Made by a program: the position numbers and the translations under genes
The notes under the pieces: generated by a model
Databases searched by the model: none
Told to the model about the DNA's origin: nothing
The model's input: the letters and a program-made list of their open reading frames with translations, nothing else
Shown: in pieces, positions 7,866-30,737 of the stretch
How the letters are laid out: each line of letters starts with the position of its first letter
How positions within the stretch are numbered: position 1 is the stretch's first letter
From: Acaryochloris marina S15
GTDB lineage: Bacteria > Cyanobacteriota > Cyanobacteriia > Thermosynechococcales > Thermosynechococcaceae
DNA length: 32,000 nt
Assembly (NCBI RefSeq): GCF_018336915.1
Contig: NZ_CP064923.1
Location: forward strand, 2,850,001-2,882,000
Reading direction: 5' to 3'

Positions 7866-8061
7866 TACCTTTCGGTGTTCGTAAATCGCAAATTGAGTCA
7901 TCATTTTGCCAAAAGTTGGCTCATGTGTAGCTAGATGTTGCCTGGAAACTGATTTCGGGTTTTTATCCAGTTAACCTGAAATATTGGCCATTAAATCTAA
8001 TATGAATAGTTGCTTAACGGGTGACAAGGTCGTCCAAGGCTTTGTACAGGACCACAAGGAA

Positions 8062-8090
8062 CCCCTGAAGTACCGCAGTAGATTCAGGGG
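8062..8090. terminator. GC-rich 8-bp hairpin in the convergent intergenic region (candidate terminator)
   Basis: CCCCTGAA (8062-8069) pairs with TTCAGGGG (8083-8090) around a 13-nt loop. It sits between the convergent 3' ends of the ABC permease gene (7865) and the 462-aa gene (8275). Flanking T content is modest. Confidence 0.25.
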
Positions 8091-8274
8091 TGTGAGCTGT
8101 TTATCTTAGCTAATAGGTAGATGAAGTTAACCCAATAACTCCATCACAAACCTATCACTCAAATCTAAAAAAATCAGGAAGATGAATAGCCAGAGTGAAT
8201 ATTATTCTGAGGTTCTATAGAGTATTGAATCTATCAAATTACATACTGAACTTCAGCTTGCTCGAAGCTACTAC

Positions 8275-9663: not shown

Positions 9664-10460
9664 GCTCTGATTATTTGATTTTGTTTAGCTATAGTAATTA
9701 TTCCCGAAAGAAATTTTAAATATTATGAATGCTGAAAAAAATTCTCATAGAGCTTTCGGCTCTATCGCAAAAATAGAGACTGGATGGCGAATTAATAAAA
9801 TTGGCCCGAGAGGAGATGTCTATAAATAGAGTGCTGATGGACTCTGAATAATGATCATTCGCTACCACATCAAACCGATACCCATGATGGTTGACCCAGG
9901 AAAACATCATCCCAGATATGAGCGTGATTTACTCTTGGGTTGGATCTGCGAGGGGCATTGCAAAAGACCCGTACTACGAAAATTCCTTAAAGCTAAGATT
10001 GTGGCTAAGGGATGAGGATAATATTGCGATCGCAACCAATATCAGCCACACTCCGCGAAGCCGAAACTATCCTCGGCTGACCCCTCGGCGTATTTCTTAG
10101 GAGTTTTTGGAGTTTGCCTTTGGCACTTCACTAGGCCCGCAGTTCCCCTATGGTTATTCGGGTGGTGTAGGTGTGAGGGATGGCGATATTGCGTGGAGAT
10201 CGCAACGCAATCGATACTGATAATGAGGTTAGTTACGAGATACACAACAGACTGGACAAGAGAAAACCTTAAAACTCAAGAAGAATGGGTTAAATAGTTG
10301 AGTTCTCTAAGAAATGACGATAAATGTGTTGTACAAGAATTCATCAAAAAGGCAGTTCCTGCTTGGATGGTCAAGTTGAGTGCTGTCTTGGGTCAGGTGC
10401 TCGCAGGTCATACGCGAAATGCTGCTATGTTATGAACAGCCACTTCTCCAAACAGTAACG

Positions 10461-17955: not shown

Positions 17956-18472
17956 AGACTTCCTTCACATCAAGGAACAGGCATCAAAGATCCTCTGCTG
18001 ACCTTAAGAACGACGTGGAAGGGAATAACACTGGGTTCAAGTTAAATCGGTAACATTAAAATCTACTGAAAATTTCGCTAGAATTTCTGGAGTTATTAGC
18101 AATCTGGCGTTTGCACCACTACTTTGCCTCTCCGGCAACGGTTGAGCACTTTCACAAACAGCCCTAGTAGTGGGTATAGATCTGACCCAGGCTGAACGGT
18201 GCTGACGACAGTCGTAAGAATTGTAGGGCCATTTTTAATCGAGGCAGGGTGCTGAATATCAATGAGAATCCTCGTGGTAGAAAGACTCCAAAGCGATGGC
18301 CAGAGTGTTTAACCTGTCCATATTCCAGGAAAGATTTTGTACCCAGTCAAAGTAGTAAAGCAGTTCTATTGACAAAGGATTAGGGACCCTCATCCTGATA
18401 GGTACGACTTTTGGCCAATAGTCTCTCTTGTTCCTGGCCTTTATAGTGAGCTCTACTAGATGGGTTAGGGGT

Positions 18473-18877
18473 ATGGTGGACAGTCAAACTGCTCATTTGG
18501 GTACGGGTTGGGCATTCCCCATTGAGGTGAATACCCAGGGAAACTTACGGTTTAGTGCCCATGCTGTTCGCAATATTGAAGAATCTATTGCAATTATTCT
18601 AGGGACCAAACTGGGGGAGCGGGTCTATCGGCCTGAGTTTGGTTCCCGTCTCTCCGAATTGACCTTTGCCCCTATGAATACCCAGACGTTGTTGTTGGTT
18701 CGATTGTATGTGACGGAAGCATTGCAACGGTGGGAACCCCGCATTGTCCTGGATGGCGTCTATACAGAGCCAGACCCGATTGAAGGGCGGGTTGAAATTA
18801 CCCTTGAATACCATCCCAAACAGACCCACGATTACCGGAGTTTAGTCTATCCGTTTTATCTAACCCCCATTACCTAG
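18473..18877 (+). CDS. GPW/gp25-family baseplate wedge protein (TssE/Afp9 equivalent)
   Basis: GTGWAFP near the N-terminus, then IEESIAIILGTKLGERVYRPEFGSRLSELTFAPMN and ALQRWEPRI, which are the gp25 lysozyme-like fold signature blocks. I prefer the ATG at 18473; the ORF track begins at a TTG at 18428. Confidence 0.9.
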   Translation: MVDSQTAHLGTGWAFPIEVNTQGNLRFSAHAVRNIEESIAIILGTKLGERVYRPEFGSRLSELTFAPMNTQTLLLVRLYVTEALQRWEPRIVLDGVYTEPDPIEGRVEITLEYHPKQTHDYRSLVYPFYLTPIT

Positions 18878-18884
18878 GCAAGAC

Positions 18885-21062
18885 ATGGAGTTTGATTTCT
18901 TACCCAAGCTACCCAAGTCGGATCTCGATGACCGCAGTTTCGATGATCTCGTGCAAGAATGCCTACTCCGCATCCCTCGTTATTGTCCTGAATGGACCCA
19001 CCATAACCCCAGCGATCCAGGCATCACCTTAGTCGAGCTATTTAGCTGGCTAACGGACCAAATGTTGCTGCGATTTAATCAGGTGCCCCGTCGCAACTAT
19101 GTCACCTTTTTAGAGTTAATGGGGGTAAGGCTGCAGCCCCCCTCCCCAGCAAAGACTCCGGTGACCTTCTACCTCAGTGCAGGTTTATCGGAGAACTACA
19201 CGATTCCGATGGATACGGAAGTGGCAACCCTACGCACGGAAACAGAAGAAGCGATTGTCTTTAGTACCGATCGCCCTGTCACCATTGGACAACCGCGACT
19301 CCGCCATTTACTCACGGCTGATATTGCCGAAATGGAACCGCAGTTCGTGCGAGATCGCTTTGCCGAATCCTGGAGTTTGAACCCTGACGGAGAATGGCAA
19401 GGGTCTGCCTTAAGCTGCTTCAATCCTCAGCCTCAAACGGGCAATTGTTTTTATCTCGTTTTTGAGCCAGAGCAGCTAGCCGGGAATGTCATCTCCGTGA
19501 CCTTTAAGGGGGAAGCGGCTACTCCCACAGGGATTAATCCTGAATGTCCACCCCGCCAATGGCAAGCTTGGAATGGTGTCTATTGGCAGCCAATTTTATT
19601 AAACGAAGCCGATGACCATACGGATGGCTTTAGCTTTGCCCGATTAACCCGCCAAAATGGTAATCCCCTCCAAGGGGCAGATGTAGTCTTGCACTTGCCC
19701 CAACATTGGCCTGTTACCAATTTTGCTAGCTATCAAGGTCGCTGGATTCGGTGTGTCTATGAGACGGAGCAAACCACCCAATGGGGCTATCGCTGTTCGC
19801 CAGAAATTGTAGGGGTGTCGGTACAAGCGATAGGAGCGACAGTTGATACGACTCAATCCTTACAAATCCACAATGAAATTTTAGGAGCCAGTGACGGCAC
19901 TCCCGGCCAAACCTTTCAACTTCAGTCCGCACCGATTCTGCCTCGCCGAGATCCTGAATACCTGTTGGTGACCGCCGTTGGTGGTATTCCTCAGCGATGG
20001 ATGGAGATCACGGATTTTGCGGACTCTGGACCAGAAGACCTGCATTACACCATTGATGCTCTCACTGGGACGTTACAGTTTGGACCTTTGATTCGAGAAC
20101 CGGCTCAAATTAAGGCACAAACGCAACAGCGGATGGCCCAATCCAATGCCAATCTTGTAGCCTTAGCCCCGGAGCAGCAGACTCTGAAGCGTCAATATGG
20201 CAAGGTGCCTCCTAAGGGAGCTGAACTGCGGATGGCCACCTATCGAACGGGCGGGGGGCTGAAAGGCAATGTGCAAAGCGGGATGATTCGGATCCTGAAA
20301 ACTGCGGTGCCCTATGTCGCCAATGTGATCAATCATCAGCCTGCCCAGAATGGAACGGATGCTGAATCCTTAGATGCTGCCGTGATTCGCGTACCGCAAA
20401 TGTTGCGAACCCGAGATCGCGCCGTCACCCAGGAAGATTTTGAGACCTTAGCCTTAACGGCAGGTCAAGGGGCAGTGGCACGAGTCCTCTGCTTGCCTGC
20501 GGATCAAACGGGCACCCCAGGACAGGTCCGCCTCCTGTTGGTCCCCCAGGTGAGGACGGATGCGATTGAGCGGGGCGAGGGCCTTCATCCTGATGTTCTC
20601 AGTCTGACTCCCCAGCTACAAACCCAGGTCAGCGACTACTTGGATGATCGTCGTCTCTTGGGTATGGCGATTCGCTATGACCAACCTCACTATGTGGGGG
20701 TCACGGTTCAAGCAGAGGTTGCCCTAGAACCGGACTACAACAATGCAGAAGCCCAAACCGAGATGCGGCATCAGCTTCAAGTGGCCCTATATCGATTTCT
20801 AAACCCGATTACTGGCGGTCCTGATGGCCGAGGTTGGCCCTTTGGCCGTCCTGTATATCCCTCTGATATTGTCACGCTGTTTCAGCCCATGCCGGGGGTG
20901 CGGCATTTGGGAACCGTTCAATTGTTTGAACTCCGTCGTCAGGAATCTCGTTGGCAGCGGATCTTGCCTAAGGAGCCGGTGATCGATCCGGGGCCTTTAG
21001 GGGTGCTCTGTTCCTGGCAGAATGCTCAACTTCGCTCTAGTCACGCTATCAGTTTGCTGTAA
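18885..21062 (+). CDS. Baseplate J-like / gp6-like putative baseplate assembly protein (TssF/Afp11 equivalent)
   Basis: The N-terminal block DDRSFDDLVQECLLRIPRYCPEWTHHNPSDPGITLVELFSWLTDQMLLRFNQVPRRNYVTFLELMGVRLQPPSPAKTPVTF matches the characteristic opening of the putative baseplate assembly protein family (TIGR02243-type, as I recall). It starts 7 nt after the gp25-like stop. Confidence 0.9.
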   Translation: MEFDFLPKLPKSDLDDRSFDDLVQECLLRIPRYCPEWTHHNPSDPGITLVELFSWLTDQMLLRFNQVPRRNYVTFLELMGVRLQPPSPAKTPVTFYLSAGLSENYTIPMDTEVATLRTETEEAIVFSTDRPVTIGQPRLRHLLTADIAEMEPQFVRDRFAESWSLNPDGEWQGSALSCFNPQPQTGNCFYLVFEPEQLAGNVISVTFKGEAATPTGINPECPPRQWQAWNGVYWQPILLNEADDHTDGFSFARLTRQNGNPLQGADVVLHLPQHWPVTNFASYQGRWIRCVYETEQTTQWGYRCSPEIVGVSVQAIGATVDTTQSLQIHNEILGASDGTPGQTFQLQSAPILPRRDPEYLLVTAVGGIPQRWMEITDFADSGPEDLHYTIDALTGTLQFGPLIREPAQIKAQTQQRMAQSNANLVALAPEQQTLKRQYGKVPPKGAELRMATYRTGGGLKGNVQSGMIRILKTAVPYVANVINHQPAQNGTDAESLDAAVIRVPQMLRTRDRAVTQEDFETLALTAGQGAVARVLCLPADQTGTPGQVRLLLVPQVRTDAIERGEGLHPDVLSLTPQLQTQVSDYLDDRRLLGMAIRYDQPHYVGVTVQAEVALEPDYNNAEAQTEMRHQLQVALYRFLNPITGGPDGRGWPFGRPVYPSDIVTLFQPMPGVRHLGTVQLFELRRQESRWQRILPKEPVIDPGPLGVLCSWQNAQLRSSHAISLL

Positions 21063-21092
21063 CAGGAGATTGCCCATTTCTCGGTAACCGCC

Positions 21093-22139
21093 ATGACGAC
21101 CTCCCCTGATCTACTGCCCTTAAGACTGCAATTGGCCCCCATGTCCGTGGCGGCGACGATGCCCCAACCCATTGTGAGAAAGGCGTCACAGGCAGAGATG
21201 GCTCCTTTTGCTTGGCAGCAGACCCATCTCTGCCAACAAGTGCTGCATCCGGGGGAACCGAGCGAGATTGTTGTGCAGTTGGAGAATAGGTGCGATCGCA
21301 CCCTCCGTATCCGCTTAGAAACAGAAGGGACCTTTCCGTTGGACTGGTGTCGGATTGGTCAAGAAGGGCAAACGTTGCCCCCAGGTAGCAAAATGGAAGC
21401 GGTTTTGTACTTCCAGCTCCCGGAAGATTTTTTTGAAGCCGAATCCAGTCCAGCCTTTATTCAAACTCAGGGACTAGATTTTCGAGGACGACTCTGTGTA
21501 TATTTCGGCACTGTCGATACCGAAACTAGCGAAGCCACCGGCGGCTTGACCTTAGAGACAGCGGAGTTTTTACTGTTTGTTCGCCCCCGCAGTCTCTATC
21601 CCACTTTTTTGCCCGACATCTATAAAGAAGTGGATTTTATTGGCCGCTTCCTCCATATTTTTGAGCAAGCCTTTGAACCTGCAGTCCAGACCCTCGATAC
21701 CCTTTGGGCCTATCTCGATCCCCTGACGGCACCTGAAACCATGCTTCCTTTTCTAGCCCATTGGGTGGGCTGGCAGCTGGCCTCTGAATTGCCATTATCC
21801 CGGCAGCGGTCCCTTATTCGTCAGGCGATTCAGCTCTATCAGTGGCGAGGCACGCGGAAAGGGCTGCGGCTCTATCTGCATTTATATACCGGGCTGCCCT
21901 TGGAAGAGTTTGTCCCCGAAGACCAGAAGCAAATCTCGATTCAAGATTCCTTTAATCGTGGATTAGTCCTAGGAGAAGCCTGTCTGGGCCAAGAATCTAC
22001 CGTCGGGGGAGGTAAGCCTTTCCATTTCTCCGTTTGTTTACGCTCCCAACAACCCCTTTCTGAATCCCTTATCCATAAAATCATCCAGCAGGAGAAGCCT
22101 GCTTTTTGCACCTATGACTTGTGTCTTGAGTCATCCTGA
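21093..22139 (+). CDS. Phage tail protein I / gp7-like wedge protein with an extra N-terminal beta-sandwich-like module
   Basis: The C-terminal ~180 aa (FLPDIYKEVDFIGRFLHIFEQAFEP...LDPLTAPETMLPFLAHWVGWQL...RQAIQLYQWRGTRKGLRLYL) matches the P2 gpI-like phage tail protein domain (TIGR02242-type, as I recall). The N-terminal ~160 aa contains the module LHPGEPSEIVVQLENRCDRTLRIRLETEG..W..LPPGSKMEAVLYFQLP. Confidence 0.8.
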   Translation: MTTSPDLLPLRLQLAPMSVAATMPQPIVRKASQAEMAPFAWQQTHLCQQVLHPGEPSEIVVQLENRCDRTLRIRLETEGTFPLDWCRIGQEGQTLPPGSKMEAVLYFQLPEDFFEAESSPAFIQTQGLDFRGRLCVYFGTVDTETSEATGGLTLETAEFLLFVRPRSLYPTFLPDIYKEVDFIGRFLHIFEQAFEPAVQTLDTLWAYLDPLTAPETMLPFLAHWVGWQLASELPLSRQRSLIRQAIQLYQWRGTRKGLRLYLHLYTGLPLEEFVPEDQKQISIQDSFNRGLVLGEACLGQESTVGGGKPFHFSVCLRSQQPLSESLIHKIIQQEKPAFCTYDLCLESS

Positions 22140-22148
22140 TTTTATTGC

Positions 22149-22214
22149 ACACCTATTTATTCTTATGTCTTGACATTACACCTATTTATTTCTGCCTATC
22201 TACACCTATTTATT
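22149..22214 (+). promoter_or_regulatory. Three perfect 13-bp direct repeats (ACACCTATTTATT) in the 97-nt spacer inside the gene array
   Basis: Copies at 22149-22161, 22178-22190 and 22202-22214, with start-to-start spacing of 29 and 24 nt. A TTGACA hexamer at 22170-22175 lies between copies 1 and 2. The next ORF starts at 22237. Confidence 0.6.
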
Positions 22215-22236
22215 CCCATCGCACCCTAGATCCTCC

Positions 22237-23613
22237 ATGACCTACTCGCCACCTACTCCCCCTGTTCAGCCCCTGCAACGTCTGCGGGTGACTGATGGGC
22301 TGTTGATTAATGCTGAGCGTTGGCGGCTGGCCTATGACTACCACCGTCAACGCCAGAGTCTGTATTACCAATCCCTCCATCAGCCAGGGATTGTCTGTGG
22401 GTTAGGCATTCATCCGATTGCCCCACCGGAGAAAATTGCCCAAGCCTATCAGGACCAGCGGTGGCTGCAGATTCAGCCGGGCATGGCCATCGATGATCAA
22501 GGCAATTGCATCGTGGTTCCTGAGCCCATCGACTTCAGGCTTGCCTCTCGGGTCGAACAGCCAACATCTGTCTATTTGGTGCTCCAATACGTCGATCCAG
22601 AACAGCTCCAGCAGGCTGAGGATAACCCTGTTCTCACAGAAGTATTTCGGATTGATGAAAAGACCCATCCCCCCGGACCTGGAGAAGTCGAGATTTGTCG
22701 GCTCATTCTTGATGCTGATGCCCAGCTGCAGTTACCAACAGATCCCTTCTTCCCCCAAATCAACCAGGTGGATTTGCGGTATCGGCTGCAGCCGAAATCT
22801 CGCCCTCAAGCTGTGCTCCAAGTCGCTCAAGTAAGCCTTAGCTCCCCATCTCCTCAACTCCAGCAGTCGGCGGTCAATTTTCAAGCTTTCCTCAGATCTA
22901 TTGAGGTTCTGTATCCCAACCTACTAGCAGTGTCTGCCCCTGATCCAATTGAACTGGTGGATCAAAACCCAGCCGTCGTTCTCGGGGACTACGATGTCCT
23001 GTACCTGCAGACGCAAACGGTCCAAGCTTTGTCCGATGTGCAGATGCGATCGCTTCAGTCTTTCCTCATGCAAGGGGGATATTTATGGGTCGAGATTTCA
23101 GTTCGGGGAACCCAGTTGGCAGAGCTATTGACGGTCAGAGCTCAATTACAGGCAGCACTGGCCCAAATGGAGGGTTCACAGACTGTGGGGGCATCTGCAG
23201 CGACTCAAAATGTACAGCCCTTGCGTCAAGAAATTACCCAGGAATTGACCGCTGTGCAAACGGCCCTCAATACCAAGCTTGATGAAACAGGACGGCCCTT
23301 TCGGGCTTTAGCGGAGCAAATGGGCCAGCCCTTGCAAGTCCTGCCAGCAGATCATCCCATTGGCTGTCAGCCCTTTCAGTTTGGGGCCTTACCGACTGTG
23401 AATCAACGGCCTATTGAACTGTTCCTCAGCGAACATCTCCTGATGGTAGTCGGTGATTTGTCCGTGGTTTGGGGAGGGGGGAGTAAAGAGGGCTTTGCCC
23501 GAGACCAGATTCGCACCGCTCAGGAGTTTGGCATCAATCTCCTTCACTATGTTTGGCAGCACCAGAATTATCGTCAGCTTCTAGCCACATCCACTACAGC
23601 GTCTACCCCTTAG
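22237..23613 (+). CDS. Hypothetical protein occupying the tail-fibre position; C-terminal half is DUF4159-like (tentative)
   Basis: 458-aa ORF. The C-terminal half has YDVLYLQTQTVQALSDVQMRSLQSFLMQGGYLWVE, then HPIGCQPFQFGALP, LLMVVGDLSVVWGGG and QIRTAQEFGINLLHYV. This pattern resembles the DUF4159 (GATase1-like fold) layout as I recall it. It is interrupted by a Q/A-rich, probably helical insert. The N-terminal half (RLRVTDGLLINAERWRLAYDYH...) is unassigned. Confidence 0.65.
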   Translation: MTYSPPTPPVQPLQRLRVTDGLLINAERWRLAYDYHRQRQSLYYQSLHQPGIVCGLGIHPIAPPEKIAQAYQDQRWLQIQPGMAIDDQGNCIVVPEPIDFRLASRVEQPTSVYLVLQYVDPEQLQQAEDNPVLTEVFRIDEKTHPPGPGEVEICRLILDADAQLQLPTDPFFPQINQVDLRYRLQPKSRPQAVLQVAQVSLSSPSPQLQQSAVNFQAFLRSIEVLYPNLLAVSAPDPIELVDQNPAVVLGDYDVLYLQTQTVQALSDVQMRSLQSFLMQGGYLWVEISVRGTQLAELLTVRAQLQAALAQMEGSQTVGASAATQNVQPLRQEITQELTAVQTALNTKLDETGRPFRALAEQMGQPLQVLPADHPIGCQPFQFGALPTVNQRPIELFLSEHLLMVVGDLSVVWGGGSKEGFARDQIRTAQEFGINLLHYVWQHQNYRQLLATSTTASTP

Positions 23614-23617
23614 TGCC

Positions 23618-25357
23618 ATGCCTTATTTTGCCAGTGCGTTTCAACATCAGTGGCGGCGGTTAAAACTAACCACCAAGTTTGGCTTTGTTCTATCGACGGT
23701 CTTTGTGGCCACGACGGGGATTGCCGGGGTAATCATTCATCAATCCGTGCATCAACAGGCAGATCATGAGCTGGAGTCACGGGGCCAACTGCTAATGGCA
23801 TTAGTGGATCAGCTAGAACAGGAAGATTCTGCTTCAGAAGCCTACCCCGTGGTCTCTTCATTGTGTGAGACTCAACCCTCCTTGTGCTCCAAAGTCTTGG
23901 TGCCCGAGTCTGGCTCGGCCATCCAGGATACCGATCAGCTAGCCGAGACTCTCAAAACGCAATTTCAGAATCAACCCGATCAAGAAACCCTATCGGGCTA
24001 TATCACCCATGCCGATCAGGAAAACTATTATCTAGCCCGACGTCAGGAGCAGGAGGGTTCCCTGCAGGTTCAGGCTATTTTTATTCCGGCCGCTCCAGCG
24101 AAGAAATTAGCTAAAGCCAACTTTTGGATGGAGATGGGGACCTTTGTGGTGTTTTTGGGGCTGACCCTGTTGTTGGTGAATGACCTAGTCCGGCGGACAG
24201 TCTTAAAACCCCTTCAACCGATGACCCAATTGGCCCATCGCCTCAGGCACAATCCAACTCGTCTCCTGGATGAATCCAGTTCAGAGATTCAGCATCTGCA
24301 CCATCATGCCCAGCAAGGCGATGAAATCGGTCAGTTGGCTGGCGCTTTACACCATCTTTTCACCACCTTCCACCACCATCCGTCTAGCCCTGCACCCATT
24401 CCGGCTGCCAACCCCGCCACTGTTCCCAATTCGGTCCAGGCGTTATTGAGTCAAACTCAGATGACGTATACCCACGAACTATTAGAGAAGGCCCGTCAAG
24501 TCCGGCAGCAACTCGGACAAACCCAAGACTTTGATTTACTCCGGTGTCTGCAAAGCGTAGACTTTCTCCAAGACTTTACTGAGCCCCAACTTCAGGATTT
24601 AATCGCCTGTGGCTATCAACGCCAGTACGAGCCGGGAGAAATTATCTTCCGTGAAGGAGAGTGGGGCCAGATATTCTATATCGTTCTGAATGGGGTGATT
24701 CAGTCTCAGGTTGATCACCCTGAACGGCAAGGCAACAAGTTGGTCTCGGGGGATGCCTTTGGTGAAACTGCCTTGTTGTCTGGGGTCACCCGACAGAGCA
24801 CTATCCAAGCTGTGGAACGGACGACGCTATTTCTAATTGAGGACCAGGCTTTTCAACGATTGCTGCGCCAATATCCTCAATGGGGCAACCGCCTTGTTCA
24901 ACGCCAATCGCAGCTAGCTGAAATCCTCAGGCAGGTGGACTATTTTCAGAATTGGTCAGAAATCCAATTCCAGCAGCTCTTGGATCGAGGCTATCGCCAA
25001 AATCTGGCAGCGGAGGCATCCTTTACCCCTGAACTAGCCAAGGTCTATGTCGTTATCTCCGGTGGCATTCACATCCAAGACCAGGACATTACCTTATCCC
25101 CCGGAGACTGTTGGGGGGATCTGAGTTTACTGTTTGAGGATCTCCCTCCGATTCACAGTCAAACCCTTGCTCAAACTAGTCTGTTCCTTTTAGAAGCGTC
25201 GGATTTATTTAGCTTACTCAAACGCTATCCCCATTTAGTCGACGTCATGGCCAATGTTTTATGGCAACGACAGCCCCAAGAGCAGAGATATCGACTGCCC
25301 GCTAATGGCTTGAGTTGGATTCGAGACCGCCTGCAATCCCAGTTACCCCCTATCTAA
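23618..25357 (+). CDS. Membrane sensor-like protein: TM, extracytoplasmic loop, TM, HAMP, then two cyclic-nucleotide-binding domains
   Basis: Hydrophobic helices FGFVLSTVFVATTGIAGVII and MGTFVVFLGLTLLLV. A HAMP-like segment follows (RRTVLKPLQPMTQLAHRL...GDEIGQLAGALHHLF). The first cNMP-binding domain is canonical (FREGEWGQIFYIVLNGVI...GDAFGETALLSGVTRQSTIQA). The second is degenerate (GDCWGDLSLLF). I could not recognise any enzymatic output domain. It starts 4 nt after the previous stop. Confidence 0.8.
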   Translation: MPYFASAFQHQWRRLKLTTKFGFVLSTVFVATTGIAGVIIHQSVHQQADHELESRGQLLMALVDQLEQEDSASEAYPVVSSLCETQPSLCSKVLVPESGSAIQDTDQLAETLKTQFQNQPDQETLSGYITHADQENYYLARRQEQEGSLQVQAIFIPAAPAKKLAKANFWMEMGTFVVFLGLTLLLVNDLVRRTVLKPLQPMTQLAHRLRHNPTRLLDESSSEIQHLHHHAQQGDEIGQLAGALHHLFTTFHHHPSSPAPIPAANPATVPNSVQALLSQTQMTYTHELLEKARQVRQQLGQTQDFDLLRCLQSVDFLQDFTEPQLQDLIACGYQRQYEPGEIIFREGEWGQIFYIVLNGVIQSQVDHPERQGNKLVSGDAFGETALLSGVTRQSTIQAVERTTLFLIEDQAFQRLLRQYPQWGNRLVQRQSQLAEILRQVDYFQNWSEIQFQQLLDRGYRQNLAAEASFTPELAKVYVVISGGIHIQDQDITLSPGDCWGDLSLLFEDLPPIHSQTLAQTSLFLLEASDLFSLLKRYPHLVDVMANVLWQRQPQEQRYRLPANGLSWIRDRLQSQLPPI

Positions 25358-25360
25358 TCT

Positions 25361-27601
25361 ATGGAAAAGCAGATTGCCACTCAAGTCTTACCCAAACAGC
25401 TAGCGTTTACACCTGGTGGTCCTCCTTCTGCCTTTGCCGTAGAGGTGGTTAACCACAGTAATCGCTACGCGAGTTTCCAGCTCGAAGTCTCTGCAGCTGG
25501 CACGAATAGCCTTTCGGAGCGCAAGTGGTACCAAGTTTTCCCCGATATTAGTACTAAAAATCCCCCCGGAGATACGACCCAATTCCAAATTGCGATTACG
25601 GATAGTCCGGTACCGGGGTTCGTGGGGTTAATGAGCTTGGCGGTGCGAGTGTTCTCCATCGAACTAGAGGAAGAAGAGCGGGAGTCTCTCAAGTTAACCC
25701 TGGAGCAAGGAACGGGATCAGTTCCCTTGGGACTTAACTTGCCCGTCGAACATTTTGATGCGGATCCAGGAGAGGAAATTCAAATTCCTGTGTTGGTGAA
25801 TAATCCTAGTCAGCTGAAAACGAAAGCGGTTGTCAGCATTAAGGGGATTGATTCGAGCTGGTTCTCCGCAGGCCATGAGCAAACGATTAACTTGGCCCCT
25901 GGGGCAACGGTGCCCACCACCTTTAGCTGTCAATTGCCTCTTGATCCGGTGCAAGCCCCTAGTCATGGCTATCAGTTTCAGATTGAAGCTAGCCATGCCT
26001 ACGGGCCGCCCACGCATATAGAGGGGAGTTTAAAAATAGATCCTCTGGGGTTTGTCGCCTTTCAGGCCCAACCCGAGGAACTCTGTATTCCCGAACAGTT
26101 TCAGTTGAAATTTTGGCAATCTCATCCAGTGACCTATGAATTGCTGTTTGAAAACAGCAGCAATCTGTATCAGCATGTGCAAATAGAGCTGGTCGATCCG
26201 CCTCCCCACTGTACCTTTGAGGTACTACCAGAAAGTACTAAATTGGGGCTTGGAGATTCTGGCAAACTTTCCCTCGTTGCCCATGCCCATCGCCCCTGGC
26301 TAGGGTTATCCAAGCGGCATTCATTGCAAGTCGATGCGGTCTGGTCAAATGTCGACCGCATTGATAGTCGCGATGAAACTCAAGTTCTGCAGTTAGAGAT
26401 TAAACCCCGTATCCCCTTGTGGTTAGTGATTTTACTGACTCTGCTGGGAGGTACTTGGTTGTGGTTCCTTTCTCCCTTTAATCAATACAATGACCGCTAT
26501 GGTCATCGTGGAGCTGTCACTTCTGTTGCCTTTAATGGCATCGCCGATCAGGCGGTGTCCAGTTCGAATGATACGACGGCCATTCGTTGGAATGTAGAGG
26601 GCCTCAGTACTTGGTGGGCTTTTCCCTATTTGGAAAATATTATTCAGCCGGGCAAACAGCTGACCCAACAGCAAAAAGCCATCCGCGTGATCACCTATCG
26701 CCCTGTCAATAACGATTTGGTGGCTGTGGGCTTGGAGAATGGCCAAATTCAACTGTGGGATTTAAACACCGACCATACGGAACCCCTGCAAACCTTTAGT
26801 TATGAAAAATCCGATCGCGTGTTGGATGTGGAGTTTAGTCAGGACTCTCGCTATCTGTTCAGTAGTCATGGCAGCGGTACAACGGTGGTCTGGTCGACCC
26901 AACGCACGGTCCAGCAGCAAAAGATCTTCAAAGAACAGAAAATGCCCTTTGCGATCTATGACTCGGTCCTGTTGGGCAATACGGATCAGTGGCTTGCGAT
27001 CGCAGGTCAACACAACCAGTTGGTCCTGTGGAATTGGCAATCAAAACAGCCCCCAAAACCGCTCCCTTATCCTCAATCTGGCACCAATCACTATATCCAA
27101 AGCATCGATACGGCCCGGGATACGCCCAACCTTTTGACCACAGCTGATACCCAAGGCAATATCACCCTGTGGAATCTATCCGCCTGTCTAAAAGATGCAA
27201 CCTCTTGCAAAACTCTACAACCTCAAGTCTGGTCCCATGGTCCAGACAATCAGCCGGTACGTTCTGTCTCCTTAAGTGACGATGGTTGCTACCTAGCGAG
27301 CGGCGGGGATGATGGTCGATTGATACTGTGGCCGCTACTCCCCAATGGGCAGCGAGATCCAGAGTTTCCCACCGGTAAACCACTTTATGAACCCCATACT
27401 TTCAGTCCGGAAAATTTATTCCAATCTATTTTTCATCCCAAATCTTCTGATCGCATTAATAGTGTGGATTTGAAGGTAATTGGCGACAAGATTCTCGTGT
27501 TGAGCGGTAGTGACGATACCCAAGTGCGTTTATATCCGACCACGGTCAAAGACGTTCAGGCCAAAATAAAACGACAAACTCCCGCTTGTGGCAAACCCTA
27601 A
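25361..27601 (+). CDS. Bitopic membrane protein: N-terminal beta-sandwich modules, one TM helix, C-terminal WD40 repeats
   Basis: The TM helix IPLWLVILLTLLGGTWLWFLSPF is encoded at 26411-26479. WD-type repeats follow: GHRGAVTSVAF...SSSNDTTAIRWNV, ENGQIQLWDL, TTVVWS, NQLVLWNW, GNITLWNL, GGDDGRLILWPL and GSDDTQVRLYP. There is no N-terminal signal peptide. It starts 3 nt after the previous stop. Confidence 0.8.
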   Translation: MEKQIATQVLPKQLAFTPGGPPSAFAVEVVNHSNRYASFQLEVSAAGTNSLSERKWYQVFPDISTKNPPGDTTQFQIAITDSPVPGFVGLMSLAVRVFSIELEEEERESLKLTLEQGTGSVPLGLNLPVEHFDADPGEEIQIPVLVNNPSQLKTKAVVSIKGIDSSWFSAGHEQTINLAPGATVPTTFSCQLPLDPVQAPSHGYQFQIEASHAYGPPTHIEGSLKIDPLGFVAFQAQPEELCIPEQFQLKFWQSHPVTYELLFENSSNLYQHVQIELVDPPPHCTFEVLPESTKLGLGDSGKLSLVAHAHRPWLGLSKRHSLQVDAVWSNVDRIDSRDETQVLQLEIKPRIPLWLVILLTLLGGTWLWFLSPFNQYNDRYGHRGAVTSVAFNGIADQAVSSSNDTTAIRWNVEGLSTWWAFPYLENIIQPGKQLTQQQKAIRVITYRPVNNDLVAVGLENGQIQLWDLNTDHTEPLQTFSYEKSDRVLDVEFSQDSRYLFSSHGSGTTVVWSTQRTVQQQKIFKEQKMPFAIYDSVLLGNTDQWLAIAGQHNQLVLWNWQSKQPPKPLPYPQSGTNHYIQSIDTARDTPNLLTTADTQGNITLWNLSACLKDATSCKTLQPQVWSHGPDNQPVRSVSLSDDGCYLASGGDDGRLILWPLLPNGQRDPEFPTGKPLYEPHTFSPENLFQSIFHPKSSDRINSVDLKVIGDKILVLSGSDDTQVRLYPTTVKDVQAKIKRQTPACGKP

Positions 27602-27617
27602 CGGATGATTTCAGCTC

Positions 27618-30095
27618 ATGACAGACCTCACTCGTGTTGATCAACTCGGCTTACAGGCCCAGAAAGTGGGTAATCCCTTGGGCATTATCCGCAATCCTTC
27701 GGGGGATGTAGCGGTTCAGGCGGGGGAAATTTTTGAACTTAGCGTCACCGTTACCAATGATGGCATTCACAGTGCCATCATCAACATCGATATTACGGAC
27801 TCTACAGATATCGTGAGCCAATGGTGTACTTCCTCCCGGGAGAGCCTTGCCCTCAATCCGGGGGAAAGCAGTGAGGTCTTCTTCCGCATTCAGGTGCCAA
27901 CCGAAACCCTACCGGGCTTCTATCCCTATACCCTGGTCATTGATGCGCCAAAGCACTATCCCGAAGAAACCCCCATCCGCTATCCCGCTCGGCTACAGGT
28001 GCTGTCCTACGTGCGGGAAACAGCAGAAGTTAGTAATCCGGTCTTAGGGATTGCCCCTGCCACCACCGCTGCGTCACCCATGCCGTTGCAAGCAGGGGAT
28101 GCTTTAGCCTTAACGGTGCTCGTGGATAACCGATGCGATCGCGTCGATCGATTCCGGTTAATCTGTCCCGATTTGCCAGCCGAATGGGTAAAAATTATTT
28201 ATCCCGAAGGGCCCCAGACGGGAGTTGTGATTGCCAGTGAAGCTCTAGAACTCAACCCAGGGGATACGGGCCAGATTCAGGTTCTGATTCAGCCACCCCT
28301 CGATACGGATGCAGGTATTTACACCCCCACCATTCGTCTGTTTTCCATCAATAACCCCGAACTGGTGTTGTTGGAAGCGGTTTATCTGCACATCCTGCCC
28401 ATTTACCAGGTCGATATTGAGCTAATTTCCCTGGTTAGTCGGGTCAAAAATCAGTCGGGATGGTTTGAGCTGCGGCTCCATAATGCCGGAAATACCCCAC
28501 GAACCCTGAATCTACAGGTCCAGAATCTAGATGCAGAAGAACTCTGTGACTATACCCTTAGTCCCACCCAGGTCCATTTATTACCCCATGCCTCGACCAA
28601 GGTCAGCCTAGAAGTTCAGCCCACTCAATGGTGGAAACGTCCTTTTTATGGTCGTCCCCTCAATTTTGCTCTGGAGTTGGAGGATACTCAGCAACTTCCC
28701 CTGGTCAATAATCGCTTTCAAGGGGCATTGATTTGGGAACCCAGACCTTGGTGGCAATTGCTGCTGGTGATTTTGACCCTGTTTGGCACCTTGGTGGGGA
28801 TTGCTTTAATCGTATGGTGGTTACTGACCCGTCCCCCAGCCAGAGCTGAGATTATCAGCTTTGCCCCAGCGACTTACAACCTCAAAGAGGCGGATGGTCG
28901 TCCCATTGAACTGAGCTGGACCATCAAAAATCCTCATAAATTCAAGCAGCTTCAAATTAAAGGGGTTTCTCCTGACGGTGTTGTGATGAGTGGTCCCTTT
29001 GTCTACGATTTCCAAGGGGGAATGCCCCCAGAACTCAGCCATTTTTGTACCCTCGCCGAGGTGCTGCGGTGTCAGCAGGTGCCTACGGATGCACGCAAGC
29101 CAGGCACCTATCGATTTGATTTATCTCTCTCACCTCAACCTGAAGGCGTTCCTCAGCCCATTGCTGCTAAAACAGAGGCAATCGTAGTCCAACCCTTCCC
29201 ACCCCCTCAAATTCAACAATTTGAACCCACACAGACAACCTATACAGAACCCATTGGTCAGATCACCCCGAAGCAGTCATCAGGGATTTATCTGAATTGG
29301 CAAATTACCCAGAGCAAAGGGACTAAGGTGACGCTAATCGGTCGAGGAGCGGATAATGCCCCCGTTACGGCCCCCAAAATATTTGACTTCAATCAAGGTA
29401 TTCCTAAGTCTCTGCAAAAAAATTGTCGTTTGAACTCCCAAACCCTGGTTTGTCTGAATGTACCAACCGGGGTTCAGGACTCTGGGACCTATATCTTCGA
29501 ACTCCAGGTCACCCCAAAACCAACCCAGACCAACCCTCCTGCTGACCCATCTCCCATTATTCAGAAAACCGAGCCAATCCAGATTAAGCCAGGGCCAGTG
29601 CAAATTCAGGAATTCACAATTAATGGCAAGATTGCGAAACCCAAATATGTATTTGTCCTTAAAGATCAAAATCCATTAATGGTAAATGTGTCCTGGAAAG
29701 TTAAAGGCAGCAAAAATACTAAAGTCAATTTACTACCGGCACCAGGGACTGTTCCCCTCCAGGGCAAGGCGAATTTATCCTTTGGACCCACATCTGCCAC
29801 CCAAACTCTCACTCTGCAAGTCACGAATACCAAAGGCGAACAACAAAATCGATCCGTCGTGATTGAAACCGTAGCCCCTCCTGCTCCAGTGGCTCAAGCC
29901 CCCAAGGCCCCTGCAAGTTCTGCAGCCAATAGTTCTAATATTCCGGCGGCAGCTCCCAGCGTAGATCCCAACTCAGCGGCAACGCCTGCTCCACCGTTGC
30001 CGGATCCACCGTTGCCGGATCCACCAGGAGGCATTCAGCCCGTACCGCGCGATCGCAACTCGCCACCCCCAGCAGAATTACCTCCCCAGTTTTAG
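27618..30095 (+). CDS. Bitopic membrane protein: three N-terminal beta-sandwich modules, one TM helix, three Ig-like repeats, Pro/Ala-rich tail
   Basis: The TM helix WWQLLLVILTLFGTLVGIALIVWWLL is encoded at 28749-28826. C-terminal internal repeats begin near 28845, 29205 and 29598. The first two each carry a conserved Cys pair (SHFCTLAEVLRCQQVP / KNCRLNSQTLVCLNVP, followed by GTYRFDL / GTYIFEL). The tail is PAPPLPDPPLPDPPGG. There is no N-terminal signal peptide. Confidence 0.8.
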   Translation: MTDLTRVDQLGLQAQKVGNPLGIIRNPSGDVAVQAGEIFELSVTVTNDGIHSAIINIDITDSTDIVSQWCTSSRESLALNPGESSEVFFRIQVPTETLPGFYPYTLVIDAPKHYPEETPIRYPARLQVLSYVRETAEVSNPVLGIAPATTAASPMPLQAGDALALTVLVDNRCDRVDRFRLICPDLPAEWVKIIYPEGPQTGVVIASEALELNPGDTGQIQVLIQPPLDTDAGIYTPTIRLFSINNPELVLLEAVYLHILPIYQVDIELISLVSRVKNQSGWFELRLHNAGNTPRTLNLQVQNLDAEELCDYTLSPTQVHLLPHASTKVSLEVQPTQWWKRPFYGRPLNFALELEDTQQLPLVNNRFQGALIWEPRPWWQLLLVILTLFGTLVGIALIVWWLLTRPPARAEIISFAPATYNLKEADGRPIELSWTIKNPHKFKQLQIKGVSPDGVVMSGPFVYDFQGGMPPELSHFCTLAEVLRCQQVPTDARKPGTYRFDLSLSPQPEGVPQPIAAKTEAIVVQPFPPPQIQQFEPTQTTYTEPIGQITPKQSSGIYLNWQITQSKGTKVTLIGRGADNAPVTAPKIFDFNQGIPKSLQKNCRLNSQTLVCLNVPTGVQDSGTYIFELQVTPKPTQTNPPADPSPIIQKTEPIQIKPGPVQIQEFTINGKIAKPKYVFVLKDQNPLMVNVSWKVKGSKNTKVNLLPAPGTVPLQGKANLSFGPTSATQTLTLQVTNTKGEQQNRSVVIETVAPPAPVAQAPKAPASSAANSSNIPAAAPSVDPNSAATPAPPLPDPPLPDPPGGIQPVPRDRNSPPPAELPPQF
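29991..30020 (+). repeat. Perfect 15-bp in-frame tandem duplication (CCACCGTTGCCGGAT x2) encoding PPLPD-PPLPD
   Basis: Copies at 29991-30005 and 30006-30020, followed by a partial CCACC at 30021-30025. It lies inside the Pro-rich tail of the 825-aa ORF. Confidence 0.9.
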
Positions 30096-30170: not shown

Positions 30171-30737
30171 ATGTTGCCCAACTGGCAGAAACTGTCTCAG
30201 ATCAAAGAACTCAGCCAATATTTTGAGGCTGATTTTGCCAGTTTCCAGCAGCAAGTTGAGCATCATATTCTGACGTTAGAGCAGTTCGACTCCAAAGAGC
30301 TGGATAAACTGGCCCTATTGCGAGTGCTTGAAGTCACCAATGGTTGCACTCAATGGGGATTGCGCCGACACGACCCGCATTGCTTATCGGTAGAACAGAC
30401 CCGTGACTGTATGAGGACTGTAATTGGATTTATTCTGGCTAAGCAGATTGATCTACCCAGTGGAGACTCTATTCGCTTCTCTCCGCCGATTGAACAGCTT
30501 ATGAATGAGGTCCGCGAACTCTATCATGCTGCCTTCAAAAAGCATGTTGAGGGCGCGGAACGAGAATACTATGCTTCTTCTGCAGCACAGTTCTTGGTCT
30601 ATGGCCGCCCGCGGCTAGAATCTGCAATACAGGTCGTAGCACAAGAGTTTGAGCCTCTCTTTACTCCCTATTATCTTGAACAGGGCCAAAACTATATCGC
30701 ACCCTATCTAGAGGCAATCCTGTCTGAAGAATCATAA
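30171..30737 (+). CDS. Hypothetical protein
   Basis: A 188-aa ORF, 75 nt downstream of and co-directional with the array. It has no recognisable motif, hydrophobic segment or signal peptide. Confidence 0.5.
   Translation: MLPNWQKLSQIKELSQYFEADFASFQQQVEHHILTLEQFDSKELDKLALLRVLEVTNGCTQWGLRRHDPHCLSVEQTRDCMRTVIGFILAKQIDLPSGDSIRFSPPIEQLMNEVRELYHAAFKKHVEGAEREYYASSAAQFLVYGRPRLESAIQVVAQEFEPLFTPYYLEQGQNYIAPYLEAILSEES

What the first reader, a model, noticed from the sequence alone, without database searches (positions are those of the whole stretch)
18473..30095. Orphan baseplate-wedge module (gp25, J/gp6, I/gp7) with no sheath, tube or spike, arrayed with a cNMP sensor and two bitopic membrane proteins
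Seen in the sequence:
- Seven co-directional ORFs are separated by only 7, 30, 97, 4, 3 and 16 nt.
- The first three follow the phage P2 W-J-I order and carry clear gp25, baseplate-J and tail-protein-I blocks.
- No ORF on either strand of the 32 kb resembles a sheath, tube/Hcp, VgrG/gp27-gp5 spike, PAAR protein, tape measure, tail terminator/cap or AAA+ ATPase.
- Upstream lies a 517-nt ORF-free gap and a divergent sugar-catabolism cluster. The wedge genes therefore start the array rather than sitting in the middle of a tail cluster.
- Composition and HIP1 density look like the rest of the chromosome, so this is not an obvious prophage.

Established knowledge: gp25, (gp6)2 and gp7 form the conserved wedge core of all contractile injection systems (T4, P2, T6SS TssE/F/G, eCIS Afp9/11/12). 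They are normally encoded beside the sheath and tube genes.

Inference, two alternatives:
(a) The wedge trimer has been co-opted as a ring or scaffold anchored to a membrane by the two bitopic proteins and controlled by cyclic nucleotide. That would be an undescribed, non-contractile use of CIS parts.
(b) This is the baseplate/anchor half of a split CIS whose sheath and tube genes lie elsewhere. A membrane-complex analogue made of WD40 and Ig-like proteins would still be new.
Basis: partly seen in the sequence, partly recalled or inferred. Interest (0 to 1): 0.92.

Follow-up and report, generated by a model that had tools for sequence, protein, structure and literature searches.

The report
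Baseplate-and-anchor operon of a split injection system
This seven-gene array is not an orphan: it is the baseplate, connector and membrane-protein part of a phage-tail-like injection machine whose sheath, tube and spike genes lie at two other places in the Acaryochloris chromosome, and only its membrane and sensor proteins are undescribed.

Summary
Seven co-directional ORFs (18473-30095) have the stated gaps and solid gp25, baseplate-J and tail-protein-I assignments. No sheath, tube or spike gene lies in the 32 kb.

The "orphan" reading fails. The window comes from an Acaryochloris strain. Other strains of the genus carry a sheath/tube/cap/ATPase locus. A. marina MBIC11017 also has a spike locus, annotated in a paper's tables. 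Sarris et al. (2014) already listed this system as split. Published RNA-seq shows all three loci, including all seven array genes, induced together in low far-red light. In other cyanobacteria the same gene order (gp25, J, I, gene 4, sensor, gene 6, gene 7) follows tube, tape-measure-like, VgrG and PAAR genes directly.

What I found no description of:
- Gene 4 is a TssK/receptor-binding-protein-type connector with a DUF4159 head.
- Genes 6 and 7 are conserved single-pass membrane proteins with homologous Ig-like N-terminal arrays.
- Between gene 4 and gene 6 lies a slot that is empty or holds an interchangeable HAMP sensor. It is dCache or haem-c Tll0287-like elsewhere. Here it is a Tll0287-derived sensor fused to a cyclic-nucleotide-binding domain.

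The parts
18345..18472 (+). Conserved upstream control region (promoter / 5' leader) that travels with the array
   Evidence: Similarity between three Acaryochloris strains starts at window 18345 (L002) or 18361 (L005). Sequence farther upstream is unrelated. The last ~100 nt are nearly invariant. No sigma-70 consensus or HLR1 element was found there.
18473..18877 (+). gp25 / Cis9 / TssE-like baseplate protein (134 aa), orthologue of AM1_6406
   Evidence: PF04965 E 2e-19. phrog_43 baseplate wedge subunit 4.6e-23. dN/dS 0.06. AM1_6406 is annotated 'GPW/gp25 family', log2 -2.29 in low far-red light.
18885..21062 (+). Baseplate J / Cis11 / TssF-like wedge protein (725 aa), AM1_6405
   Evidence: TIGR02243 659 bits, full length. 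Closest solved structure is Streptomyces CIS-Sc Cis11, 9gtp, E 4.7e-114. 96% identical to A. marina MBIC11017. dN/dS 0.04.
21093..22139 (+). Tail_P2_I / Cis12 / TssG-like wedge protein (348 aa) with an extra N-terminal Ig-like domain, AM1_6404
   Evidence: TIGR02242 130 bits and PF09684. Matches 9gtp_E, CIS-Sc Cis12, E 1.7e-6. N-terminal residues 46-113 are related to the Ig repeats of genes 6 and 7 (hhalign prob. 94% and 88%).
22237..23613 (+). Gene 4: connector in the tail-fibre (Cis13/Afp13) position, AM1_6403. It has an N-terminal RBP-shoulder/TssK-like docking domain (~1-200), a DUF4159 (ThuA-like) head and a coiled-coil insert.
   Evidence: All 61 family members match the first ~100 positions of NCBIfam CIS13_fam. 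AF2 model pLDDT 90.8. Best PDB folds are TssK N-domain 5mwn and 6n38_F (prob. 0.82-0.97) and ThuA-like 4jqs. BFVD hits are phage tail-fibre and receptor-binding proteins, E down to 1.6e-6. It follows I in every locus where both genes were detected.
23618..25357 (+). Gene 5: membrane sensor, AM1_6402. Order of parts: TM1 (22-40), reduced Tll0287-like loop, TM2 (169-191), HAMP, cNMP-binding domain (335-419), then a possible degenerate second one.
   Evidence: PF00027 1.5e-22 and HAMP. Hydropathy. Residues 15-241 are homologous to the Tll0287-like+HAMP protein in the same slot of L024 (BLASTP 6e-25), with deletions that remove the CXXCH haem motif. Seen only in Acaryochloris loci. dN/dS 0.11.
25361..27601 (+). 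Gene 6: single-pass membrane protein, AM1_6401. It has three N-terminal Ig-like repeats, a TM helix (353-371) and a C-terminal WD40 beta-propeller.
   Evidence: WD40 families. A single hydrophobic helix at the same place in 27 of 29 homologues. The N-terminal region is homologous to that of gene 7 (hhalign prob. 97.9%, E 5e-13). Syntenic after gene 4 or the sensor in 27 of 48 classifiable metagenome loci.
27618..30095 (+). Gene 7: single-pass membrane protein, AM1_6400. It has N-terminal Ig-like (NPCBM_assoc/NEW3) repeats, a TM helix (381-399) and a C-terminal region with no family match that ends in a Pro-rich tail.
   Evidence: PF10633 5.7e-9. A strong single TM helix in 13 of 13 homologues. 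Orthologue of the 933-aa protein that ends the Cylindrospermum cluster (42% identity). The block of similarity to L002 ends at 30099.

Best explanation
The array is one of three chromosomal loci that together encode a contractile injection system (CIS) in Acaryochloris. By sequence the system belongs to the Afp/PVC-type superfamily. Its wedge proteins are closest to those of the cytoplasmic Streptomyces system (CIS-Sc).

Shown:
- gp25, J and I are the wedge proteins.
- Gene 4 sits where the tail fibre (Cis13/Afp13) normally sits. It has the receptor-binding-protein shoulder / TssK-type N-terminal docking fold and a DUF4159 head.
- Genes 6 and 7 are conserved single-pass membrane proteins with homologous Ig-like N-terminal arrays.
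- Gene 5 is a two-TM HAMP protein with a cNMP-binding domain.
- Sheath, tube, cap and ATPase genes lie at a second locus. Tube-initiator, tape-measure-like, VgrG and PAAR-type genes lie at a third.
- All three loci rise together in low far-red light.

Inferred:
- (J)2-I-gp25 wedges assemble around the spike.
- Gene 4 trimers dock on the TssG-like I protein.
- The cytoplasmic Ig arrays of genes 6 and 7 bind the baseplate periphery or the gene 4 head. Their TM helices tie the particle to a membrane, with the WD40 and C-terminal domains outside the cytoplasm (periplasm or thylakoid lumen).
- Gene 5 sits in the same membrane and passes a signal, here cAMP or cGMP, through its HAMP domain to permit or trigger anchoring or firing.
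For: Organism: J is 96% identical to A. marina MBIC11017, at the end of the chromosome record.

Second locus: Acaryochloris-series assemblies (SRR12447953, SRR12447959; the same run series as the window's J, SRR12447961) carry an eCIS_core protein, an AAA ATPase, a Pvc16_N cap, a response regulator and histidine kinase, a second Pvc16_N protein, a sheath and three gp19 tube genes.

Published record:
- Sarris 2014 lists AM1_6406-6403 plus AM1_0270-0276.
- AM1_0271 is annotated as sheath and AM1_5911 as 'Rhs element Vgr protein'.
- AM1_6400 to AM1_6406, AM1_5907 to AM1_5912 and AM1_0267 to AM1_0278 are all induced in low far-red light.

Synteny:
- Cylindrospermum and Pseudanabaena have tube, tape-measure-like, CIS_tube, VgrG, PAAR, gp25, J, I, gene 4, (sensor), gene 6, (gene 7) in one run.
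- Of 42 metagenome loci classifiable upstream, 31 are contiguous with spike genes and 11 are not.

Wedge type: J and I match CIS-Sc Cis11 and Cis12 in 9gtp, where the wedge is (Cis11)2-Cis12.

Gene 4 fold.

Membrane proteins: TM conservation and Ig-repeat homology.

Sensor slot: dCache+HAMP, Tll0287-like+HAMP, or HAMP+cNMP.

Selection: dN/dS 0.04-0.12 for all seven genes across three strains.
Against: - The sheath and spike loci were not seen in the window's own genome, only in congeners and in MBIC11017.
- VgrG in Acaryochloris rests on a paper's annotation, not on a sequence I examined. Two look-ups aimed at it hit other organisms.
- No particle has been imaged in Acaryochloris.
- The Foldseek matches of gene 4 to TssK are weak by E-value (about 0.01).
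- Membrane orientation is inferred only from the absence of signal peptides. Charges flanking the TM helices are ambiguous.
- No interaction between genes 4-7 and the wedge has been tested.
- 21 of 48 classifiable loci lack gene 6 within 4 kb, so the anchors are not universal in the lineage.
Confidence: 0.8

Rival explanations
1. Extracellular system. The particle is released by lysis like Afp/PVC. Gene 4 is simply its tail fibre or receptor-binding protein. Genes 5-7 are co-transcribed helpers (regulation, assembly platform, release) rather than anchors.
For: - Gene 4's N-domain is the same fold as phage receptor-binding and tail-fibre proteins.
- A 2026 catalogue describes TssK-like fibres in Tail_P2_I-type extracellular systems.
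- The second locus has an eCIS_core protein and an Afp15-like ATPase.
Against: - The gene 4 head is a DUF4159/ThuA-like domain, not a fibre or lectin-type binding domain.
- Two single-pass membrane proteins with Ig arrays related to the extra domain of the wedge protein I are conserved directly downstream.
- J and I are closest to the cytoplasmic CIS-Sc.
- The only cyanobacterial system studied so far is intracellular.
Confidence: 0.12
2. The wedge proteins have been co-opted into a non-contractile membrane-bound ring or scaffold that works without sheath, tube or spike.
For: Locally the array starts with gp25, has its own conserved upstream region, and moves as a discrete 11.75-kb block between unrelated contexts in three strains.
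Against: - Sheath, tube, cap and ATPase genes exist in congeners, and a Vgr gene in MBIC11017.
- They are co-induced with the array.
- Orthologues are contiguous with spike genes in 31 of 42 classifiable loci.
- gp25 and J are the most constrained genes (dN/dS about 0.04-0.06).
Confidence: 0.03
3. Decaying remnant of a broken-up gene cluster, with no current function.
For: The cluster is fragmented into three loci.
Against: - All seven ORFs are intact in three strains that differ by 16-19% at the nucleotide level, with dN/dS 0.04-0.12.
- All seven are transcribed and light-regulated in MBIC11017.
Confidence: 0.02

Closest known systems
Streptomyces coelicolor cytoplasmic CIS (CIS-Sc) with the membrane protein CisA (PDB 9GTP; eLife 2025, PMC12237407)
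   Same: - J and I are the closest sequence relatives of CIS-Sc Cis11 and Cis12 among solved structures (E 4.7e-114 and 1.7e-6). That structure has a (Cis11)2-Cis12 wedge.
- CIS-Sc also depends on a single-pass membrane protein encoded with the system, with a cytoplasmic N-terminus predicted to contact Cis11.
   Different: - CisA has a disordered N-terminal region and a substrate-binding-like periplasmic domain. Here there are two proteins with Ig-repeat N-termini and a WD40 or uncharacterised C-terminus.
- CIS-Sc has no fibre-position protein. Here gene 4 fills it.
- CIS-Sc is one contiguous cluster.
- Sequence similarity to CisA was not tested.
Anabaena thylakoid-anchored CIS (tCIS; Weiss et al. 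2022, PMC8894136)
   Same: - A cyanobacterial, intracellular, membrane-tethered CIS.
- The fibre-position protein Cis13 docks on the baseplate through an N-terminal domain. Gene 4 shares that domain (CIS13_fam, first ~100 positions).
   Different: - tCIS is anchored by a TM helix in Cis13 itself, a ~500-aa Cis12 extension and a Cis19 crown, and Cis11 carries a cage domain.
- Here gene 4 has no TM helix, I is only 348 aa, and J is a plain 725-aa TIGR02243 protein that did not match the Anabaena Cis11 chain in the PDB search.
- Anchoring, if any, is delegated to separate proteins.
- The tCIS genes form one cluster.
Type VI secretion baseplate TssE-TssF-TssG-TssK docked on the TssJLM membrane complex
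   Same: - The gene order gp25, J, I, gene 4 matches TssE, F, G, K.
- The gene 4 N-domain has the TssK/RBP shoulder fold.
- A connector followed by membrane proteins mirrors TssK bridging the wedge to TssL/M.
- Ser/Thr kinase and FHA genes next to related loci recall the PpkA/Fha pathway.
   Different: - No Pfam match to TssJ, TssL or TssM families in the array proteins.
- The companion loci have tape-measure-like, Pvc16-type cap and Afp15-like ATPase genes, not TssA or ClpV.
- The gene 4 head is DUF4159, not the TssK head.
Phage-like protein translocation structures / extracellular CIS of cyanobacteria (Sarris et al. 2014; later catalogues)
   Same: The very genes are listed there: A. marina AM1_6406-6403 plus AM1_0270-0276. 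Cyanothece PCC 7822 and Gloeobacter violaceus are likewise listed with two or three loci.
   Different: That list stops at the fourth gene. It omits the spike locus (AM1_5907-5912) and says nothing about genes 5-7 or the sensor slot.

Membership tests
Afp/PVC-type contractile injection system superfamily (eCIS / CIS-Sc / tCIS) | gp25-like Cis9, TIGR02243 Cis11 and TIGR02242 Cis12 wedge proteins | tested here: met
   PF04965 2e-19. TIGR02243 659 bits against a cut-off of 156. TIGR02242 130 bits against a cut-off of 52.
Afp/PVC-type contractile injection system superfamily (eCIS / CIS-Sc / tCIS) | Sheath, tube, Pvc16-type cap and AAA ATPase encoded in the same genome | tested here: met
   Seen in Acaryochloris-series assemblies L020 and L103 and, by published annotation, in MBIC11017, which holds the same array. 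Not seen for the window's own strain, whose genome could not be searched.
Afp/PVC-type contractile injection system superfamily (eCIS / CIS-Sc / tCIS) | VgrG spike, PAAR-type tip and tape-measure protein in the same genome | tested here: inconclusive
   AM1_5911 is annotated 'Rhs element Vgr protein', and AM1_5907-5912 are co-induced. I did not obtain the sequences. Orthologous clusters elsewhere do have these genes.
Afp/PVC-type contractile injection system superfamily (eCIS / CIS-Sc / tCIS) | Assembly of a contractile particle | not testable with these tools
   Needs electron microscopy or cryo-ET of Acaryochloris.
Anabaena-type thylakoid-anchored CIS (tCIS) | Cis13 with a C-terminal transmembrane helix | tested here: not met
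   Gene 4 has no segment above 1.54 mean hydropathy. CIS13_fam scores 36 bits against a cut-off of 370, N-terminal ~100 aa only.
Anabaena-type thylakoid-anchored CIS (tCIS) | Extended Cis12 (membrane-contacting extension) and Cis11 with cage domain | tested here: not met
   I is 348 aa, and CIS12_fam scores 71 bits against a cut-off of 860. J is 725 aa and covers TIGR02243 end to end with no large insert. The PDB search returned CIS-Sc, not the Anabaena chain.
Anabaena-type thylakoid-anchored CIS (tCIS) | Cis19 crown protein | not tested
   No Cis19 sequence or model was at hand.
Type VI secretion system | TssJ/TssL/TssM membrane complex, TssA, and ClpV-recycled TssBC sheath | tested here: not met
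   No such Pfam or NCBIfam families in the array. Companion loci are of the eCIS type: Pvc16_N, eCIS_core and an AAA ATPase with a winged-helix domain.
Type VI secretion system | TssK connector (shoulder N-domain on TssG, head on the membrane complex) | tested here: inconclusive
   The fold of gene 4's N-domain matches the TssK N-domain (prob. 0.82-0.97, E about 0.01). The head differs, and no interaction was tested.
Streptomyces CIS-Sc type | CisA-like single-pass membrane protein required for firing | not tested
   Genes 6 and 7 share the single-pass architecture. No CisA sequence was available for comparison, and function is untested.

The most novel reading that the evidence does not exclude
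A lineage of cyanobacterial injection systems has built its own T6SS-like docking station from unrelated parts. A TssK/RBP-type connector (gene 4) couples the wedge to a membrane complex made of two single-pass Ig-repeat proteins, one with an extracytoplasmic WD40 propeller. An interchangeable output-less HAMP sensor (dCache, haem-c Tll0287-like, or cNMP-binding as here) gates anchoring or firing, so contraction is under direct small-molecule or redox control.
Probability: 0.3. Interest if true: 0.75.

Novelty: new variant of a known kind. Interest (0 to 1): 0.45.

Why it matters
How intracellular contractile injection systems are tethered and triggered is an open question. Only two solutions are described: baseplate and fibre extensions in Anabaena, and CisA in Streptomyces.

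This lineage is widespread. The gene 4 family alone has 529 clusters at 50% identity. It offers a third candidate solution with a built-in sensor whose input domain is swapped between genomes, which makes the trigger experimentally approachable: cyclic nucleotides in Acaryochloris, Cache ligands or haem-sensed signals elsewhere.

It also shows that surveys which require contiguous clusters will miss or mis-score modular systems. About a quarter of the classifiable loci here (11 of 42) lack spike genes next to the wedge.

The co-induction in far-red light gives a growth condition in which to look for particles.

Tried and rejected
- Genome-collection scan with J as a single protein returned only 7 loci.
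- Sheath search with the Kovacikia sheath. The first candidate, P0188, was another organism. The tight Logan-only group P0160-P0167 proved to be the Acaryochloris series.
- VgrG search. Candidates P0313 and P0311 came from unrelated samples, so the Acaryochloris VgrG sequence was not recovered.
- tblastn of VgrG against plasmids found no Acaryochloris plasmid copy. The array itself has no plasmid match.
- Single-sequence AlphaFold of gene 4 was useless (pLDDT 37.6). The run with a 61-sequence alignment replaced it.
- A search for 10-mers shared between the upstream regions of the wedge and sheath loci found none.
- No HLR1 (RpaB) element lies upstream of gp25. The sigma-70 and terminator scans were not above chance.
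- PADLOC hits to gene 5 reflect only the cNMP-binding domain shared with Pycsar effectors. A defence-system reading was rejected.
- Prophage reading rejected: no integrase or tRNA, HIP1 density equal to the flanks, and phage J proteins at most 29% identical over half the length.
- Literature searches for WD40, DUF4159 or cyclic-nucleotide binding together with contractile injection systems found nothing relevant. The Weiss et al. supplements do not mention Acaryochloris or these domains.


Full report
**1. The observation**

The seven + strand ORFs exist at the stated coordinates, with gaps of 7, 30, 97, 4, 3 and 16 nt. The first three are securely assigned:
- gp25: PF04965, E 2e-19.
- J: PF04865, plus a full-length match to TIGR02243 at 659 bits against a cut-off of 156.
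- I: PF09684, plus TIGR02242 at 130 bits against a cut-off of 52.

Upstream lie 517 ORF-free bases, then a divergent short-chain dehydrogenase, a glycogen-debranching enzyme, a GH63-like hydrolase and an aquaporin.

Nothing in the 32 kb resembles a sheath, tube, VgrG, PAAR/DUF4280, cap, tape-measure C-terminus or ATPase. I tested this with Pfam on the large ORFs and with tblastn using this lineage's own versions of those proteins.

HIP1 density is the same inside and outside the array (5 sites in 11.6 kb against 9 in 20.4 kb). There is no tRNA and no Rfam match. No plasmid matches, and phage J proteins are distant and partial.

**2. Where the window comes from, and the missing half**

The J protein is 96% identical to a gene at the very end of the Acaryochloris marina MBIC11017 chromosome record. 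It is 100% identical to a gene in a Logan assembly of run SRR12447961.

Two papers bear directly on the locus:
- Sarris et al. 2014 list the A. marina "phage-like protein translocation structure" as two loci, AM1_6406-6403 and AM1_0270-0276. They also list split systems in Cyanothece PCC 7822 and Gloeobacter violaceus.
- An RNA-seq study of A. marina (mBio 2024) annotates AM1_0271 as tail sheath, AM1_6406 as GPW/gp25 and AM1_5911 as an Rhs-element Vgr protein. In low-intensity far-red light, compared with high-intensity white light, it finds all of the following induced:
 - AM1_6406 to AM1_6400, the seven genes of this array. The sensor AM1_6402 is at log2 -1.86.
 - AM1_5907 to AM1_5912.
 - AM1_0267 to AM1_0278.

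I checked the sheath locus directly. A search with the Kovacikia sheath returned a tight group of Logan-only proteins. They come from runs SRR12447953 and SRR12447959, the same series as the window's J. On 14-15 kb contigs they sit with:
- an eCIS_core protein, an AAA ATPase and a Pvc16_N cap protein;
- a LuxR-type response regulator and a histidine kinase;
- a second Pvc16_N protein and three gp19 tube genes.

A related contig continues into a kinase/PBP protein, a Nif11 peptide and a peroxidase. This matches MBIC11017, where AM1_0279 is annotated as a peroxidase.

I did not recover the Acaryochloris VgrG sequence itself.

**3. The same genes in one piece elsewhere**

In Cylindrospermum stagnale PCC 7417 the J orthologue (62% identity) lies in an uninterrupted run: tube, a 1136-aa repetitive tape-measure-like protein, CIS_tube, VgrG, PAAR, gp25, J, I, gene 4, gene 6, gene 7.

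A Pseudanabaena plasmid has the same run with a Cache protein between gene 4 and gene 6.

A metagenome scan with a gene 4 alignment gave 80 loci.
- gp25, J, I and gene 4 are always in this order.
- Of 42 loci with enough upstream sequence, 31 have spike genes just before gp25 and 11 do not.
- Kovacikia shows the complementary break: sheath through VgrG and DUF4280, with no wedge genes after them within the stretch fetched.

So the system is modular. A break before gp25 recurs, and the Acaryochloris arrangement is one instance of it.

Within Acaryochloris the array behaves as a discrete block. Similarity to two other strains (81-84% nucleotide identity) begins 112-128 nt upstream of the gp25 ATG. 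For one strain it ends 4 nt past the gene 7 stop codon. For MBIC11017 it ends after the next small gene. The flanks are unrelated. All seven genes are under purifying selection, with dN/dS 0.04-0.12.

**4. What the four downstream genes are**

Gene 4
- It occupies the tail-fibre position.
- Every one of 61 family members matches the first ~100 positions of NCBIfam CIS13_fam, far below that model's cut-off.
- A high-confidence model (pLDDT 90.8, pTM 0.85) has an N-terminal beta domain. Its best PDB matches are the T6SS TssK N-terminal domain and TssK in the TssKFG subcomplex (prob. 0.82-0.97, E about 0.01).
- Its best viral matches are tail-fibre, minor-tail and receptor-binding proteins (seven hits at E 1e-3 or better).
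- The C-terminal half is DUF4159, with a ThuA-like fold and a coiled-coil insert.
- A 2026 catalogue already notes TssK-like fibres in systems with Tail_P2_I-type baseplates, so this part is not new in principle.

Genes 6 and 7
- Each has one strong hydrophobic helix, at residues 353-371 and 381-399. It is conserved in 27 of 29 and 13 of 13 homologues.
- Neither has a signal peptide.
- Their ~350-aa N-terminal regions are homologous to each other (hhalign prob. 97.9%). They are related to the extra N-terminal domain of the wedge protein I (prob. 94% and 88%).
- Gene 6 ends in a WD40 propeller. The C-terminal half of gene 7 has no family match and ends in a proline-rich tail.

Gene 5
- It has two TM helices around a 130-aa loop, then HAMP, then a cNMP-binding domain (E 1.5e-22). 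By eye this domain keeps the Glu and Arg of the phosphate-binding cassette, and a possible degenerate second domain follows.

**5. The sensor slot**

The position between gene 4 and gene 6 varies among loci:
- empty in 11 metagenome loci;
- a dCache_1 + HAMP protein in 13 metagenome loci;
- a Tll0287-like (CXXCH haem-c) + HAMP protein in 2 metagenome loci;
- gene 5 in the Acaryochloris loci examined, and nowhere else in the loci I examined.

Gene 5 residues 15-241 align with the Tll0287-like slot protein (BLASTP E 6e-25), but deletions remove the haem motif. Gene 5 is therefore a derivative of the slot sensor. It lost its extracytoplasmic cofactor site and gained a cytoplasmic cyclic-nucleotide module.

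None of these sensors has an enzymatic or DNA-binding output. This suggests, as an inference, that they act through contact with neighbouring proteins.

**6. Mechanism: shown and inferred**

Shown:
- wedge identity and the existence of the companion loci;
- co-expression of all three loci;
- synteny and purifying selection;
- domain architecture.

Inferred:
- A (J)2-I-gp25 wedge, as in the closest solved relative, CIS-Sc (9gtp).
- Gene 4 trimers docked on I, as TssK docks on TssG and Cis13 on the Anabaena baseplate.
- The Ig arrays of genes 6 and 7 in the cytoplasm at the baseplate periphery, with their TM helices fixing the particle to a membrane.
- Gene 5 modulating this in response to cAMP or cGMP.

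Which membrane is involved, and what the system does (self-lysis as in Anabaena and Streptomyces, or injection into neighbours), is unknown.

From memory, and not checked here: cyanobacterial cAMP levels respond to light quality. That would fit the far-red induction, but it is speculation.

**7. Comparison with known systems**

The array belongs to the Afp/PVC-type superfamily. By sequence its wedge is nearest to CIS-Sc.

It is not an Anabaena-type tCIS. Gene 4 has no TM helix, I has no extension, J has no cage domain, and the CIS12 and CIS13 models score far below their cut-offs.

It is not a T6SS. There are no TssJLM families, and the companion loci have eCIS-type cap, ATPase and tape-measure-like genes.

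It may nevertheless work like a hybrid of the three: an eCIS-type particle, a TssK-like connector, and CisA-like single-pass membrane partners.

**8. Verdict**

The headline claim of an orphan wedge without sheath, tube or spike holds only locally. At genome level it is refuted, and the split was published in 2014.

What remains is a conserved, expressed and, as far as I could find, undescribed accessory module with an interchangeable sensor. That is a new variant of a known kind. It is of moderate interest and readily testable.

Noticed in passing
L003 2947-6357; L012 6462-14057; L013 12421-19371: The gene in the tape-measure position is huge and highly repetitive, with a short conserved C-terminus. 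It is 1136 aa in Cylindrospermum (dozens of ~25-aa Ser/Pro/Glu-rich repeats), 2531 aa in Pseudanabaena and 2316 aa in Kovacikia. If it really sets tube length, these particles would be unusually long.
   Followed up: partly
L003 141-2141; L012 3070-5481; L014 9208-14275; L020 13724-15139; L050, L052, L053: A Ser/Thr kinase fused to a periplasmic-binding-protein domain recurs next to these loci. It is often accompanied by an FHA protein and a histidine kinase / LuxR-type regulator pair. This recalls the PpkA/Fha threonine-phosphorylation control of type VI secretion.
   Followed up: partly
L013 24457-27324: In Kovacikia minuta a 955-aa protein with a C-terminal cNMP-binding domain (and a weak Fer4_5 match) lies about 2 kb downstream of VgrG and DUF4280. 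This is a second, independent association of a cyclic-nucleotide-binding protein with this lineage.
   Followed up: no
L020 407-2143; L103 196-2184; L104 492-1988; L017 1-2700: The eCIS_core (PF13699) protein beside the ATPase in the Acaryochloris sheath locus varies greatly in length between strains (498 to over 1000 aa). That is the pattern expected of a polymorphic effector or toxin.
   Followed up: no
window 30171-30737: A 188-aa ORF directly after the array matches phrog_3318 (unknown function, E 1e-32). MBIC11017 also has it downstream of the array, but the third strain does not. It has no Pfam or NCBIfam family.
   Followed up: partly
window 8000-10000 (ORF 8275-9663, minus strand): G+C drops to 0.38-0.39 against 0.45-0.55 elsewhere. 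The drop surrounds a 462-aa DUF6745 protein and about 700 nt without a long ORF, which may be a recently acquired patch.
   Followed up: no
window 3084-5048: A 654-aa ORF gives two matched stretches to the glutaminase family (757 bits in all), so it looks like a tandem or extended glutaminase. It lies next to asparagine synthase, a methyltransferase and a glycine-betaine-type ABC transporter.
   Followed up: no
L014 5341-6792 and 7233-8156; L081, L089, L090, L093: A Nostocales-type sublineage lacks genes 6 and 7. After gene 4 it has a Ser/Thr kinase with MORN repeats and a DUF1388-repeat protein instead, which may be an alternative accessory set.
   Followed up: no
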